From positions 1 through 4,955 of IMG/VR virus record IMGVR_UViG_3300018483_000002: a DNA stretch of 4,955 nucleotides; one strand, 5' to 3'. The stretch's first letter is position 1, and every line of letters starts with the position of its first letter. Below are positions 484 through 2,515 of this stretch, piece by piece. The position numbers and the translations under genes were made by a program. The stretch is from a virus. Lineage: Duplodnaviria; Heunggongvirae; Uroviricota; Caudoviricetes. The notes beneath the pieces were generated by a model that saw nothing but the letters and a program-made list of their open reading frames with translations, was not told where the DNA came from and did no database searches.

Positions 484-907
484 GTTTCACCGTCCACATT
501 TCTTCAGGTTCATCGGGTTCTGCTACAGCTTCAACGCTCGACACACTGCCGTCAGTGCTGACCAGCACACGTTCCGTCAGTTGCAGATTAAGGCTGATAT
601 CACAGACATCGTTGCGCAAAATATCCACATCAAAGGTGAATAGCTTTTCCCGTAACGCCGGGTTATTGATGGCATCGGGCTGGTTATCCCTCAGCCACAG
701 CAAAACCGGGGCCATCAGCAGATTCTGGTCGCCGCTGAAATCCTCTATCACCACGTTCAGGGTATAGCGGTACTCCCATGACATGGAGCTGGCCCCCGTG
801 GCAACCAGCGAACCGTTATCCACAAACAGATGCAGTTTGTCCGGGTTATTGCGGACATAAGGCACAGCTTTATTGAGGGCGTGGCGCAGGGATTGTGGTT
901 TGTTCAC
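476..907 (-). CDS. R: Phage tail completion protein, gpR-like
   Basis: ORF track 476..928; stop TGA at 476-478. The track's first codon at 926-928 is TTG. I place the start at GTG 905-907, which is preceded by AGGAGC 6 nt upstream and gives MNKPQSLRHAL..., matching the P2 gpR N-terminus as I recall it (MLKPDSLRRAL...). Conserved FVDNGS, RYTLNV and LTERVLV blocks are present. Confidence 0.8.
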   Translation of the reverse strand: MNKPQSLRHALNKAVPYVRNNPDKLHLFVDNGSLVATGASSMSWEYRYTLNVVIEDFSGDQNLLMAPVLLWLRDNQPDAINNPALREKLFTFDVDILRNDVCDISLNLQLTERVLVSTDGSVSSVEAVAEPDEPEEMWTVKRG

Positions 908-1160
908 TGTTTCGCTCCTGACACGCAATAATCATGTCCACTTTGTCTGCACAGACCGCCCAGGCGGCCTCCGTTTCATCCAGCAACGCATTCAGATCAC
1001 CGTTAGTGCGCGGTGCTGCCTGCTCCAGCCGACACGGCGTCACTCGCGGACAACCACTGACGGTAAGCTGCACCTCCGGTGAGTGCCGGACGTTCCCGCA
1101 GCCGGATAATGTCAGCAGGCAAAGGAGTATCAGCCCAGTGGCGTAAATCCTCGTTCTCAC
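870..1160 (-). CDS. lysC: Outer-membrane spanin lipoprotein (LysC / Rz1-like o-spanin)
   Basis: 96-aa ORF in a different frame, starting inside the 3' part of lysB and ending 38 nt inside R (stop TAA 870-872). GTG start at 1158-1160 is preceded by GAGGA about 8 nt upstream. N-terminus MRTR-IYATGLILLCLLT-LSGC is a lipoprotein signal with lipobox LSGC (Cys codon 1098-1100). The mature part is Pro- and Cys-rich, as is typical of o-spanins. Confidence 0.6.
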   Translation of the reverse strand: MRTRIYATGLILLCLLTLSGCGNVRHSPEVQLTVSGCPRVTPCRLEQAAPRTNGDLNALLDETEAAWAVCADKVDMIIACQERNSEQTTIPAPRPQ

Positions 1161-1431
1161 GTTTCAGTTCCTCGATCCGGCGTTGTCGTTGTCTCAGCTG
1201 TGCGCTGGTCTGTTCTGCTTCGGCATAGAGCCGCACCTGCTCCCGGTTATTGGTTTCAGTCAGAATGGACAGGCTGATAAGCTGGCTGTTGCTCTTTGCC
1301 AGTGCCTGGCTTTTGCTCTTCAGCTCGTCTGCCTGCGTGCTAATGGTCTGGCTGGCATCAGCCAGCCGCCACGCCTGCCAGCCCAGCGCCGCCAGTAATA
1401 ACGCCAGCACAACCAGCAGCAACCGGTTCAT
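1003..1431 (-). CDS. lysB: Inner-membrane spanin (LysB / Rz-like i-spanin)
   Basis: 142 aa; ATG at 1429-1431 overlaps the lysA stop (ATGA). It has one N-terminal TMD (LLLVVLALLLAALGW) followed by a charged, Q/E/R/L-rich predicted coiled coil. It sits after the endolysin and lysA and contains the embedded lipoprotein ORF, which is the classic Rz/Rz1 arrangement. Confidence 0.75.
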   Translation of the reverse strand: MNRLLLVVLALLLAALGWQAWRLADASQTISTQADELKSKSQALAKSNSQLISLSILTETNNREQVRLYAEAEQTSAQLRQRQRRIEELKRENEDLRHWADTPLPADIIRLRERPALTGGAAYRQWLSASDAVSAGAGSTAH

Positions 1432-1805
1432 GCTGCTACCTGTTGCGCCATCTGATTACGGGTGATCCAGAAGGCAATAACGGTCAGTAGATAAAAGACC
1501 AGGGTAATAGCCCACCCCGTCCATGCGAGACTTACAACAATCAGCAATCGCATCACCCAACTGGTAAATACGTTTTCTTTTCGGGTAATTGTCTTCAGCA
1601 AAGATGCCCTTAACTCCTGCCAGAGCGGGCCATTCTTAATTAACGCAGCCAGTGCTACCGGAATTACCGCCCATGTCAGCAAACAGGCTACCCAAACGCC
1701 GGACGCTGCCAGTACCGGAAAAATCCCCTGCGGATACACCATTGCTGCGATTAACAGCGCCATCCATAACATCAGAAACAGTCCGCTGATTAATTTCTTT
1801 TTCAT
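1428..1805 (-). CDS. lysA: LysA-like polytopic membrane protein (lysis-timing accessory, function unproven)
   Basis: In-frame ATG at 1803-1805 is preceded by GGGAG about 8 nt upstream and lies directly after the endolysin stop (TGAAATG). The 125-aa product has 3-4 hydrophobic segments. Its position between the endolysin and lysB matches P2 lysA. The track's longer 1428..1877 ORF would start inside the endolysin gene with no RBS. Confidence 0.6.
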   Translation of the reverse strand: MKKKLISGLFLMLWMALLIAAMVYPQGIFPVLAASGVWVACLLTWAVIPVALAALIKNGPLWQELRASLLKTITRKENVFTSWVMRLLIVVSLAWTGWAITLVFYLLTVIAFWITRNQMAQQVAA

Positions 1806-1806
1806 T

Positions 1807-2319
1807 TCAGTTTGCTCCCTGTAAACACCAGGCCATCTCCCGCGCACGGCGGTTATCCAGCCCCTGATTAAACACACCTTTTACATAAACCCAGCGCGGT
1901 AACTGTCGGCACGCATCCGCCCAGCGCCGCTGATTGAGCAATTTCACCAGCGTGGAGCTGCAGGCATTGCCTGTCCCCACGTTGAAGGCAAACGACACCA
2001 CCGAGTCATACACCTTTTGTGGCGGCTGTTGCTTCACACACCTTTCCAGCGCCCGCTCCACACGCAGCACGTTGGAGATCAGCCCTTCCGCTGCCTGTCG
2101 TTCCGTAATGGTTTTGCCTGGAATGACGCCAGATGTATTACCAATGCCGTCGGTCCAGACACCCGCGCTGCACTGATACGGCTGCAGACGACAGCCTTCG
2201 TAATCGGCAATCAGTTTCAGCCCCTCCACGGAGGTGTGAAGCTGCTGAAAACCCGGCAGCGTGGCAGCAATAGCCAGCACGGTCCCGACAAGGCAGCGTT
2301 TAACGATTGATGGATTCAT
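1807..2319 (-). CDS. SAR endolysin, T4-lysozyme-fold (GH24) muramidase of the P1 Lyz type
   Basis: 170 aa; ATG 2317-2319 preceded by GGGAGGA; stop TGA 1807-1809. The N-terminus has a weakly hydrophobic Ala/Gly/Thr-rich segment (CLVGTVLAIAATLPGF), typical of a signal-arrest-release domain. The catalytic block EGCRLQPYQCSAGVWTDGIGNT aligns with T4L E11...D20...T26 and with P1 Lyz EGCRRDPYMCPAGVWTDGIGNT (from memory). Residues are E41 (2197-2199), C43 (2191-2193), C50 (2170-2172), T56 (2152-2154) and SAR Cys9 (2293-2295). Confidence 0.9.
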   Translation of the reverse strand: MNPSIVKRCLVGTVLAIAATLPGFQQLHTSVEGLKLIADYEGCRLQPYQCSAGVWTDGIGNTSGVIPGKTITERQAAEGLISNVLRVERALERCVKQQPPQKVYDSVVSFAFNVGTGNACSSTLVKLLNQRRWADACRQLPRWVYVKGVFNQGLDNRRAREMAWCLQGAN

Positions 2320-2515
2320 AGTCCTCCCGCGAGATCTGCCCGTCGCGCAGAAGCTGGTAGGCTTTGTGTTTGTAGTACCAGTTGATAGCCAGCATCAGCA
2401 CACCAATCATCAGGCCGCCCAGCGTTGAGGCATCCTTGATGGACAAATCGCCCAGCCAGGCCAGCACGACGGCGATGCAATACGTGATAAAGGCGCTGAT
2501 TCGCTCAAGCGTCAT
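2300..2515 (-). CDS. Putative holin, small two-TMD (class II-like) membrane protein
   Basis: 71 aa; ATG 2513-2515 lies 3 nt after the X stop; stop TAA 2300-2302 overlaps the endolysin start by 20 nt. Two hydrophobic segments (ISAFITYCIAVVLAWLG and LGGLMIGVLMLAINWYY) are followed by a charged C-terminal tail (KHKAYQLLRDGQISREDYESINR). Its position directly upstream of the endolysin supports a holin call. It is not similar to P2 Y as I recall it. Confidence 0.6.
   Translation of the reverse strand: MTLERISAFITYCIAVVLAWLGDLSIKDASTLGGLMIGVLMLAINWYYKHKAYQLLRDGQISREDYESINR

What the first reader, a model, noticed from the sequence alone, without database searches (positions are those of the whole stretch)
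1807..2319. Endolysin is a P1 Lyz-type SAR lysozyme with the complete disulfide-caging cysteine set
In sequence: the N-terminus is a weakly hydrophobic Ala/Gly/Thr-rich segment containing one Cys (Cys9, codon 2293-2295). In the catalytic block, the position aligned to T4 lysozyme Asp20 is Cys (C50, 2170-2172), with a second Cys two residues after the catalytic Glu (E41 at 2197-2199, C43 at 2191-2193). Established knowledge: this is the arrangement in phage P1 Lyz (Xu et al. 2005), where the active-site Cys is held in a disulfide with the neighbouring Cys while the enzyme is membrane-tethered, and the SAR-domain Cys frees it by isomerisation after release. Inference: this P2-like phage secretes its endolysin via sec and keeps it covalently inactive until the membrane is depolarised, unlike prototype P2, whose K endolysin is cytoplasmic and holin-released.
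Basis: partly seen in the sequence, partly recalled or inferred. Interest (0 to 1): 0.45.

Follow-up and report, generated by a model that had tools for sequence, protein, structure and literature searches.

The report
P1-type cysteine-caged SAR endolysin
The lysis enzyme of this P2-family prophage is an ordinary though well-preserved relative of the phage P1 lysozyme: it very probably sits in the membrane with its active-site cysteine locked in a disulfide until the membrane is depolarised, a mechanism described in 2005, and about a fifth of complete E. coli genomes carry it.

Summary
ORF 1807-2319 (- strand, 170 aa) is a T4-type (GH24, PF00959) lysozyme. Its best solved relative is P1 Lyz. 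E41/C43/C50/T56 align without gaps to P1 E42/C44/C51/T57 and to T4 E11/D20/T26. Cys9 is the only Cys in the N-terminal hydrophobic segment and falls in the same alignment column as P1 Cys13 and HP1 Cys11.

The triple is not chance. In 33 of 33 distinct homologues with a SAR-like segment plus Cys at E+2 and E+9, the segment holds exactly one Cys. None of 7 Asp-type SAR-like segments does.

A confident AlphaFold model matches active full-length P1 Lyz (1XJT, TM 0.85) much better than the inactive form (1XJU, 0.57).

The gene sits in a P2-type late operon. Only the holin and endolysin (P2 Y and K) have been replaced, by an HP1-family class II holin and this enzyme.

Export, absence of signal cleavage and disulfide isomerisation were not testable here.

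It is not new. HP1, also a P2-family phage, has an experimentally supported SAR endolysin with the same Cys set, and this module is in 1031 of 5426 complete E. coli genomes. Minor differences from P1: an uncharged stretch of only 16 residues, with the Cys at its cytoplasmic edge.

The parts
1807..2319 (-). Endolysin CDS, 170 aa plus stop: GH24/T4-type lysozyme with an N-terminal SAR-like segment
   Evidence: PF00959 E = 2.7e-39. P1 Lyz 1xjt E = 5.7e-26. AlphaFold pLDDT 94.3, best Foldseek hit 1xjt with TM 0.85. 100% identical to the endolysin of Escherichia phage 500465-1.
2248..2295 (-). SAR-like segment, residues C9-F24 (CLVGTVLAIAATLPGF), preceded by K7 R8
   Evidence: 16 uncharged residues, 44% G/A/S/T, mean Kyte-Doolittle 1.95. 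The summed Hessa insertion energy is less favourable than for P1 or R21.
2293..2295 (-). Cys9, the only Cys in the N-terminal segment; proposed isomerising thiol
   Evidence: Same MAFFT column as P1 Cys13 and HP1 Cys11; Cys in 75/76 distinct homologues. 33/33 against 0/7 co-occurrence test.
2197..2199 (-). Glu41, catalytic Glu (T4 E11, P1 E42)
   Evidence: Invariant in all alignments.
2191..2193 (-). Cys43 (E+2), proposed caging partner (P1 C44)
   Evidence: Ungapped alignment to P1. 75/76 conserved; the exception is P0083, which has Gly.
2170..2172 (-). Cys50 (E+9), catalytic-triad position of T4 Asp20 and P1 Cys51
   Evidence: 76/76 in the SAR-bearing set.
2152..2154 (-). Thr56, third triad residue (T4 T26, P1 T57)
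2038..2040 (-). Cys94, proposed structural disulfide partner of Cys120
   Evidence: Covarying pair: the query subfamily has Cys at 94+120, the P1/HP1 subfamily at 90+116 in query numbering. Pairing is inferred.
1960..1962 (-). Cys120, proposed partner of Cys94
1909..1911 (-). Cys137, proposed structural disulfide partner of Cys165
   Evidence: This column is Cys in P1, HP1, R21/RrrD and nearly all homologues examined. Pairing is inferred.
1825..1827 (-). Cys165, proposed partner of Cys137
2300..2515 (-). Class II holin, 71 aa, two hydrophobic segments, HP1 family; its 3' end overlaps the endolysin start by 20 nt
   Evidence: PF16080 at 36.7 bits (cut-off 28.8); weak P21 S hit below cut-off. 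PHROG 20 holin. PGAP name 'HP1 family phage holin'. A homologous holin overlapping the endolysin start is found in 16 viral contigs.
2323..2327 (-). GGAGG Shine-Dalgarno for the endolysin, inside the holin coding sequence, 3 nt before the ATG
   Evidence: Read directly from the sequence.
1428..1805 (-). LysA-type membrane protein, 125 aa, about four hydrophobic segments; probably modulates lysis timing
   Evidence: 26% identity to P2 LysA, E = 6e-6. PHROG 162 E = 1.2e-43. No Pfam hit in the local copy.
1003..1431 (-). LysB, i-spanin (Rz equivalent)
   Evidence: 32% identity to P2 LysB, E = 4e-14. PHROG 89.
870..1160 (-). LysC, o-spanin lipoprotein (Rz1 equivalent), overlapping lysB and R; lipobox LSGC at residues 18-21
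   Evidence: PF23793 E = 1.5e-15. 41% identity to P2 LysC starting from residue 1.

Best explanation
The gene encodes a signal-arrest-release (SAR) endolysin of the P1 Lyz type.

Inferred sequence of events: the N-terminal segment (K7 R8 followed by C9-F24) engages the Sec system and leaves the enzyme tethered to the inner membrane, N-in and C-out, with the catalytic domain in the periplasm. Cys9 lies at the cytoplasmic face, out of reach of DsbA. In the periplasm DsbA oxidises consecutive cysteines: C43-C50, and probably C94-C120 and C137-C165. The catalytic-triad Cys50 is thereby locked ('caged').

When the co-transcribed HP1-family class II holin, probably a pinholin, collapses the proton motive force, the weakly hydrophobic segment leaves the bilayer. 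Cys9 attacks the C43-C50 disulfide, a C9-C43 bond forms, Cys50 is freed, and the N-terminal segment folds into the body of the enzyme. The active muramidase then degrades the wall. The LysB/LysC spanins disrupt the outer membrane, and the LysA-type membrane protein probably tunes the timing.

Shown here: the fold, the triad, the positions and conservation of the Cys residues, the composition of the segment, the gene context, and replacement of P2 Y/K. Inferred: export, tethering, absence of cleavage, which Cys pair with which, and the trigger.
For: - PF00959 E = 2.7e-39.
- Best PDB sequence match is P1 Lyz 1xjt/1xju, ungapped across EGCRxxPYxCxAGVWTDGIGNT.
- MAFFT alignment with P1, R21/RrrD and T4 places C50 on T4 D20.
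- Cys9 shares a column with P1 C13 and HP1 C11. It is the best-conserved residue of positions 1-30 (75/76) while its neighbours vary.
- 33/33 Cys/Cys-type SAR-like segments have exactly one Cys, against 0/7 Asp-type.
- The protein has 7 Cys, like P1 Lyz and HP1 Lys: three in the triad plus two pairs, one of which covaries. One thiol is therefore always unpaired.
- AlphaFold model: pLDDT 94.3, with residues 11-30 at about 95 and packed as short helices. Foldseek gives active P1 Lyz 1xjt TM 0.85 over 172 columns, against inactive 1xju TM 0.57.
- The segment is 44% G/A/S/T and less hydrophobic than P1 or R21, so it is plausibly releasable.
- The HP1-family holin immediately upstream is a conserved, overlapping partner in 16 viral contigs.
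- HP1 Lys (same Cys set, also 16 uncharged residues) lyses E. coli without holin. HP1 release is azide-sensitive, and the HP1 holin behaves as a pinholin (PMC7312051).
Against: - Nothing here tests export, cleavage, tethering or disulfide chemistry.
- The uncharged stretch is only 16 residues, and Pro22-Gly23 lie near its end. The summed Hessa insertion energy is +1.9 to +5.9 kcal/mol, against about -1 to +0.8 for P1 and R21. It therefore also resembles a signal-peptide h-region. AXA-like sites exist (A16-I17-A18), and SignalP called the comparable HP1 segment a signal peptide.
- AlphaFold was trained with 1XJT available, so agreement with the active form is not fully independent evidence.
- The co-occurrence statistic is not corrected for phylogeny, and the Asp-type control is small (7).
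- Many soluble homologues carry the Cys/Cys pair without a SAR, so the pair can exist without a caging role.
- One close homologue (P0083) has Gly in place of Cys43.
- The primary papers (Xu 2004, Xu 2005, Kuty 2010) could not be read here.
Confidence: 0.8

Rival explanations
1. The N-terminus is a conventional Sec signal peptide that is cleaved, releasing a soluble periplasmic lysozyme. Cys9 would be lost and would play no regulatory role.
For: The hydrophobic stretch is short (16 residues), preceded by Lys-Arg and followed by Pro-Gly, and AXA-like sites are present. SignalP predicted a signal peptide for the comparable HP1 Lys segment.
Against: Cys9 is the most conserved residue of the first 30 and co-occurs strictly with the Cys43/Cys50 pair, which is unexpected for a discarded peptide. 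AlphaFold packs residues 11-30 into the enzyme with pLDDT around 95, as in active full-length P1 Lyz. Without Cys9, a C43-C50 disulfide would leave the enzyme permanently inactive. P1 Lyz and R21 also contain AXA motifs in their SAR domains, yet both were crystallised as full-length proteins (3HDE and 1XJT).
Confidence: 0.07
2. It is a SAR endolysin, but the cysteines are not the switch. Activation would be purely conformational, as in phage 21 R21, and the Cys triad would be an inherited feature with only a catalytic or structural role.
For: R21-type SAR endolysins work without any SAR Cys (one search shows none in R21/RrrD). Soluble homologues have the Cys/Cys pair without a SAR. One close homologue lacks Cys43.
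Against: The strict 33/33 association of a single SAR Cys with the Cys/Cys block, against 0/7 for the Asp type. The Cys column is retained down to about 31% identity of the N-terminal region while its neighbours change. The Cys count is odd, as in P1.
Confidence: 0.07
3. The enzyme is cytoplasmic and soluble. The N-terminal segment is simply part of the fold, and release depends on a large-hole holin, as in the lambda and P2 paradigm.
For: The model shows the segment folded into a globular protein. Insertion energy is unfavourable. Many relatives are soluble.
Against: Soluble relatives lack this roughly 28-residue extension altogether: their catalytic Glu is at about position 15. The closest characterised relatives, P1 Lyz and HP1 Lys, are exported. 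The partner holin belongs to the HP1 family, whose prototype does not pass beta-galactosidase.
Confidence: 0.04
4. The segment is a stable type II signal anchor and the enzyme acts while still tethered, never being released.
For: Lys-Arg on the cytoplasmic side followed by a hydrophobic stretch fits an N-in anchor.
Against: The stretch is shorter and less hydrophobic than the releasable P1 and R21 SAR domains. The model places it inside the soluble fold.
Confidence: 0.02

Closest known systems
Phage P1 Lyz (PDB 1XJT active form, 1XJU secreted inactive form; Xu et al. 2004 and 2005)
   Same: GH24 fold. E-8X-C-5X-T triad. Cys at E+2. A single Cys in an N-terminal SAR-type segment, in the same alignment column. 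7 Cys in total. 37% identity overall, and identical over most of EGCRxxPYxCxAGVWTDGIGNT.
   Different: The uncharged stretch is 16 residues, not 20. The Cys lies at the N-edge after Lys-Arg, not mid-segment. The second structural Cys pair is shifted by four residues on both partners (94/120 against 90/116). A 12-residue insertion of P1 is absent. The gene is directly coupled to an HP1-family holin in a P2-type late operon; in P1, lyz is unlinked to lydA/lydB.
Haemophilus phage HP1 Lys with HP1 Hol (PMC7312051)
   Same: A P2-family (Peduoviridae) phage. Holin of the same Pfam family (PF16080) whose end overlaps the endolysin start. SAR-type lysozyme with 16 uncharged residues and the same Cys set (C11, E47, C49, C56, T62; 7 Cys).
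   Different: Only 34% identical to the window enzyme, and the holins are not detectably similar by BLASTP. In HP1 the cassette lies after the tail genes, not between X and lysA/B/C. The HP1 paper does not discuss the cysteines.
Phage 21 R21 / DLP12 RrrD (PDB 3HDE, 3HDF, 4ZPU)
   Same: SAR endolysin of the same GH24 family, paired with a class II (pin)holin. The C137/C165-equivalent Cys pair is shared.
   Different: Asp, not Cys, in the triad. No Cys at E+2 and none in the SAR domain. Its regulation is conformational, not by disulfide caging (mechanism from established knowledge, Sun et al. 2009).
Phage P2 gpK with gpY (prototype of the family)
   Same: Same position in the late operon, between X and lysA.
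   Different: No significant sequence similarity. No PF00959 hit. No hydrophobic N-terminus. Y is a 93-aa holin of a different family (PF04550).

Membership tests
GH24 / T4 E-type phage lysozyme (PF00959) | Profile match above the curated threshold | tested here: met
   134.8 bits against a cut-off of 22.3, E = 2.7e-39.
GH24 / T4 E-type phage lysozyme (PF00959) | Glu-8X-Asp/Cys-5X-Thr catalytic triad | tested here: met
   E41, C50 and T56, aligned to T4 E11/D20/T26 and P1 E42/C51/T57. Motif as stated in PMC3556154.
GH24 / T4 E-type phage lysozyme (PF00959) | Lysozyme fold | tested here: met
   AlphaFold pLDDT 94.3. Foldseek hits to 1xjt, 3hde, 4zpu, the P22 lysozyme and T4L.
SAR endolysin | N-terminal weakly hydrophobic, Gly/Ala/Ser/Thr-rich transmembrane-like segment preceded by basic residues | tested here: met
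   K7 R8 followed by C9-F24, 44% G/A/S/T, mean Kyte-Doolittle 1.95. It is shorter (16) than in P1 (20) or R21 (23).
SAR endolysin | The segment is not cleaved by signal peptidase | not testable with these tools
   No SignalP or DeepTMHMM available. Indirect support only: a conserved Cys in the segment and the segment packed into the modelled fold.
SAR endolysin | Sec-dependent export, membrane tethering, and release on depolarisation; holin-independent lysis | not testable with these tools
   Experimental properties. Shown in part for the relative HP1 Lys.
P1 Lyz-type disulfide-caged SAR endolysin | Cys in place of the catalytic Asp | tested here: met
   C50. 76/76 in the SAR-bearing homologue set.
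P1 Lyz-type disulfide-caged SAR endolysin | Caging Cys two residues after the catalytic Glu (P1 C44) | tested here: met
   C43. 75/76.
P1 Lyz-type disulfide-caged SAR endolysin | A single Cys in the SAR domain (P1 C13) | tested here: met
   C9, in the same MAFFT column as P1 C13. Exactly one Cys in 33/33 such segments.
P1 Lyz-type disulfide-caged SAR endolysin | C43-C50 disulfide in the tethered form, isomerising to C9-C43 on release | not testable with these tools
This needs biochemistry or structures.
Pinholin / SAR-endolysin lysis cassette | Small class II holin encoded immediately upstream | tested here: met
   71 aa, two hydrophobic segments, PF16080 above cut-off, 20-nt overlap with the endolysin start. 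Conserved pairing.
Pinholin / SAR-endolysin lysis cassette | The holin makes only small, depolarising holes | not testable with these tools
   Shown only for the distant family prototype, HP1 Hol. The P21 S profile hit is below the cut-off.
P2 K-type endolysin | Sequence similarity to P2 gpK | tested here: not met
   BLASTP E = 0.10 over 24 residues. P2 K has no PF00959 hit.

The most novel reading that the evidence does not exclude
The enterobacterial P2-family subfamily to which this enzyme belongs may be a distinct variant of the P1 design. Its anchor is minimal (14-16 uncharged residues ending in Leu-Pro), and the isomerising Cys is fixed at the cytoplasmic boundary, directly after Lys/Arg, instead of being buried mid-bilayer. 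The thiol would then be kept reduced by contact with the cytoplasm rather than by burial. The marginal anchor would give different spontaneous-release kinetics and a different dependence on the pinholin. The covarying relocation of the second structural disulfide (94/120 against 90/116) would mark the same split.
Probability: 0.2. Interest if true: 0.3.

Novelty: new member of a known kind. Interest (0 to 1): 0.18.

Why it matters
Its value is mainly for annotation. More than a thousand complete E. coli genomes, and many Klebsiella, Salmonella and Citrobacter prophages, label this gene only 'lysozyme' or 'endolysin'. Recognising it as a caged SAR endolysin paired with an HP1-family holin predicts holin-independent toxicity on cloning. 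It also predicts DsbA and Sec dependence, and a need for reducing or isomerising conditions, or a Cys43 substitution, when the enzyme is produced as an antibacterial. In addition, it documents that within Peduoviridae the holin-endolysin pair is an exchangeable module, while lysA/B/C and the tail genes stay P2-like. It opens no long-standing question.

Tried and rejected
- First AlphaFold run, using 18 close homologues, gave pLDDT 49 and was discarded. A 54-sequence alignment fixed this.
- The search for related loci with two alignments failed because no stretch was conserved enough. I replaced it with a degenerate DNA pattern for AGVWTxGxG. That pattern turned out to favour Cys-type enzymes, so the Asp-type SAR control stayed small (7 segments).
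- Xu 2004, Xu 2005, Kuty 2010, Sun 2009, Cahill & Young 2019 and two Young reviews are not held. A text search for Cys13/Cys44/Cys51 found nothing relevant. The residue-level P1 mechanism therefore rests on established knowledge, the PDB entry titles and PMC3556154.
- Apparent exceptions to the SAR-Cys rule (P0145, P0155, P0157, P0163, P0170, P0146) were inspected. Two have the Cys just before a Lys that splits the segment. The others begin inside the hydrophobic segment, so they are truncated start calls or fragments.
- I considered a programmed frameshift producing the 296-aa endolysin-LysA fusions and rejected it. Two different 1-nt deletions produce them, and their clusters are tiny.
- The + strand ORFs across the region (1934-2176, 2017-2310) are shadow ORFs with no support.

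Full report
**What is there.** The window is part of the late operon of a P2-family prophage, with all genes on the - strand. In order these are: major capsid N (partial), small terminase M, head completion L, tail X, a 71-aa holin, the 170-aa endolysin (1807-2319), a 125-aa membrane protein, LysB, LysC, R and S. It is about 97% identical to Klebsiella and E. coli temperate phages. The endolysin is 100% identical to that of Escherichia phage 500465-1 (Peduoviridae, Wadgaonvirus), where it is annotated simply as 'endolysin'.

**Check of the observation.** Translation and codon arithmetic confirm Cys9 (2293-2295), Glu41 (2197-2199), Cys43 (2191-2193), Cys50 (2170-2172) and Thr56 (2152-2154). Four further Cys lie at positions 94, 120, 137 and 165. 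There is no in-frame start upstream, a GGAGG lies 3 nt before the ATG, and related records use the same start.

The protein hits PF00959 at E = 2.7e-39. Its best solved relative by sequence is P1 Lyz (1xjt, E = 5.7e-26). That alignment is ungapped through EGCRLQPYQCSAGVWTDGIGNT against EGCRRDPYMCPAGVWTDGIGNT, so E41/C43/C50/T56 correspond to P1 E42/C44/C51/T57. My recalled P1 Lyz sequence is 100% identical to the lyz gene of NC_005856. The 'R21' sequence I used is identical to DLP12 RrrD (4ZPU) and near-identical to R21 (3HDE). MAFFT with P1 Lyz, R21/RrrD and T4 E puts C50 in the column of T4 Asp20.

The N-terminal uncharged stretch is C9-F24, 16 residues, 44% Gly/Ala/Ser/Thr, with a single Cys.

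**Is the Cys triple more than chance?** I used two samples: the 150 best representatives from a search of 1.84 billion 50%-identity cluster representatives, and 113 lysozyme ORFs recovered from viral contigs with a degenerate pattern for AGVWTxGxG, a motif downstream of the residues in question.
- Pooled and de-duplicated, 33 of 33 SAR-like segments attached to a Cys(E+2)/Cys(E+9) catalytic block contain exactly one Cys. None of 7 SAR-like segments attached to an Asp-type block contains any (Fisher p = 5e-8, uncorrected for shared ancestry).
- In a MAFFT alignment of 76 distinct N-terminal pieces (31-100% identical to the query), the Cys falls in one column that also holds P1 Cys13 and HP1 Cys11. 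It is Cys in 75 of 76, and the exception starts inside the hydrophobic segment. It is the most conserved position among residues 1-30.
- Apparent exceptions were truncated start calls, or cases where a Lys splits the segment.
- One caveat matters. The Cys/Cys block alone is common in relatives that have no hydrophobic N-terminus (32 representatives, 45 distinct viral-contig proteins). PMC3556154 had already noted a soluble enzyme with a catalytic Cys (phiCbK gp104). Only the triple is informative.

**Further anatomy.** The enzyme has 7 Cys, as do P1 Lyz and HP1 Lys. The 137/165 pair is near-universal and is shared with R21/RrrD. The other pair covaries: it is 94+120 in the query's subfamily and 90+116 (query numbering) in the P1/HP1 subfamily. 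Most members have 3 + 2n Cys, so one thiol is always unpaired, as an isomerisation switch requires. Which Cys bond to which is inferred.

**Structure.** With 54 diverse sequences, AlphaFold gave pLDDT 94.3 and pTM 0.88. Residues 11-30 have pLDDT around 95 and form two short helices packed on the body of the enzyme, not one long membrane helix. Foldseek ranks the active full-length P1 Lyz first (1xjt: TM 0.85, 172 aligned columns, rmsd 3.0 Å). The secreted inactive form scores only 0.57 (1xju). This fits a segment that is retained in the mature enzyme, with the caveat that 1XJT may have informed the predictor.

**Context.** X (61%), R (51%), LysC (41%), LysB (32%) and the 125-aa protein (26%, E = 6e-6 to LysA) are P2 homologues. 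The holin and endolysin show no significant similarity to P2 Y and K. P2 K has no PF00959 hit and no hydrophobic N-terminus. So the Y-K module has been replaced.

The holin belongs to the HP1 family (PF16080, 36.7 bits against a cut-off of 28.8). A hit to the phage 21 S family is below its cut-off. In 16 of the 22 viral contigs that carry a Cys-caged SAR endolysin, a homologue of this holin (26-100% identical) lies immediately upstream, and its end overlaps the endolysin start by 17-35 nt. Of the other six, two are P1-type, one has no upstream sequence, and in three my script picked an out-of-frame ORF. The LysA-type gene is present downstream in only a few of these contigs.

**Mechanism.** The best-supported reading is the P1 Lyz mechanism: Sec-dependent insertion as an N-in/C-out tethered protein, DsbA-made C43-C50 caging of the catalytic Cys, and holin-triggered depolarisation. 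The weak anchor is then released, Cys9 attacks the caging disulfide, and the N-terminal segment refolds into the enzyme.

The P1 mechanism itself is established knowledge (Xu et al. 2004, 2005; Kuty et al. 2010). I could not read those papers here. The available support is the titles of 1XJT and 1XJU and the statement in PMC3556154 that the P1 catalytic Cys is held in a disulfide until activation.

For a P2-family relative, HP1 Lys has the same Cys set (C11, E47, C49, C56, T62) and also 16 uncharged residues. It lyses E. coli without its holin. HP1 release is blocked by the SecA inhibitor azide, and the HP1 holin kills cells without letting beta-galactosidase out (PMC7312051).

**Differences from P1.** The anchor is shorter (16 residues against 20). 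The summed Hessa insertion energy is +1.9 to +5.9 kcal/mol, against about -1 to +0.5 for P1. The Cys sits at the N-edge of the segment right after Lys7-Arg8, so it would lie at the cytoplasmic face rather than mid-bilayer. The closest subfamily shares this layout (KR-C-x13-LP).

**Rivals.**
- A cleaved signal peptide is the most serious rival, because the stretch is short and SignalP called the HP1 equivalent a signal peptide. The conserved, co-occurring Cys and the modelled packing argue against it.
- A purely conformational switch of the R21 kind.
- A cytoplasmic soluble enzyme.
- A permanent anchor.

The last three are each less likely, and none can be excluded without experiments.

**Novelty.** SAR endolysins in P2-family phages are already published (HP1, PMC7312051; Midge, PMC12697156), and P1-type caging is textbook phage biology. 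This holin-endolysin pair is present in 1031 of 5426 complete E. coli genomes, where PGAP names it 'lysozyme | HP1 family phage holin'. I found no paper describing the cysteines of this particular enzyme or of HP1 Lys, so it is a new, well-supported member of a known kind. Interest is low.

Noticed in passing
window 1810-1840 (3' end of the endolysin) and 1428-1805; proteins P0007, P0015 and others: Public databases hold many 276-296-aa 'proteins' in which the endolysin is fused in frame to the downstream LysA-type membrane protein. Two different single-G deletions just before the stop codon create them. The clusters are tiny (1-10 members; P0015 is on 30 contigs, including complete genomes), against 600-1750 members for the normal 170/171-aa form. 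They look like prophage decay or homopolymer sequencing errors, not a programmed frameshift.
   Followed up: partly
window 1428-1805 (-); L001 1802-2179; P2 lysA in L004 2510-2935: The LysA-type protein, with about four hydrophobic segments, is labelled 'endolysin' in RefSeq records NC_049342 and NC_001895, evidently because PHROG 162 carries that description. It has no enzyme domain and is homologous to P2 LysA, whose record note says 'affects timing of lysis'. This is a propagating misannotation.
   Followed up: partly
window 870-1160 (-): The LysC o-spanin ORF starts at GTG 1160 with a lipoprotein signal (lipobox LSGC, residues 18-21) and aligns to P2 LysC from residue 1. The related phage records annotate only C-terminal fragments, equivalent to window 869-985 (39 aa, NC_049342) and 870-1043 (58 aa, KP12), which lack the signal and the lipidated Cys.
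   Followed up: partly
homologues P0164, P0166, P0176, P0181, P0190 and others; loci L007, L017, L022, L044, L062 and others: Many GH24 lysozymes with no N-terminal hydrophobic segment (catalytic Glu at about residue 15) still carry Cys at both E+2 and E+9, that is, the 'caging pair' without a SAR Cys. Whether they are oxidised and inactivated after holin release, or descend from SAR ancestors as PMC3556154 suggests for phiCbK gp104, is open.
   Followed up: no
window 2038-2040 and 1960-1962 (Cys94, Cys120), compared with P1 Cys91/Cys118 and HP1 Cys96/Cys123: The second putative structural disulfide has moved by four residues on both partners between subfamilies: 94+120 here, 90+116 in P1/HP1 numbered on the query. 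A third subfamily uses a pair at 151 plus an insertion instead. This covariation argues that the two Cys are bonded to each other.
   Followed up: partly
protein P0083 (Dryocola sp. LX212, 87% identical): This close homologue keeps Cys9 and Cys50 but has Gly in place of the caging Cys43. It is a natural 'uncaged' variant, or a sequencing error.
   Followed up: no
window 2300-2319: The holin stop codon (2300-2302) lies 17 nt inside the endolysin ORF, a 20-nt overlap. The endolysin Shine-Dalgarno (2323-2327) is inside the holin coding sequence, which suggests translational coupling. The same 17-20-nt overlap recurs in most related viral contigs.
   Followed up: partly
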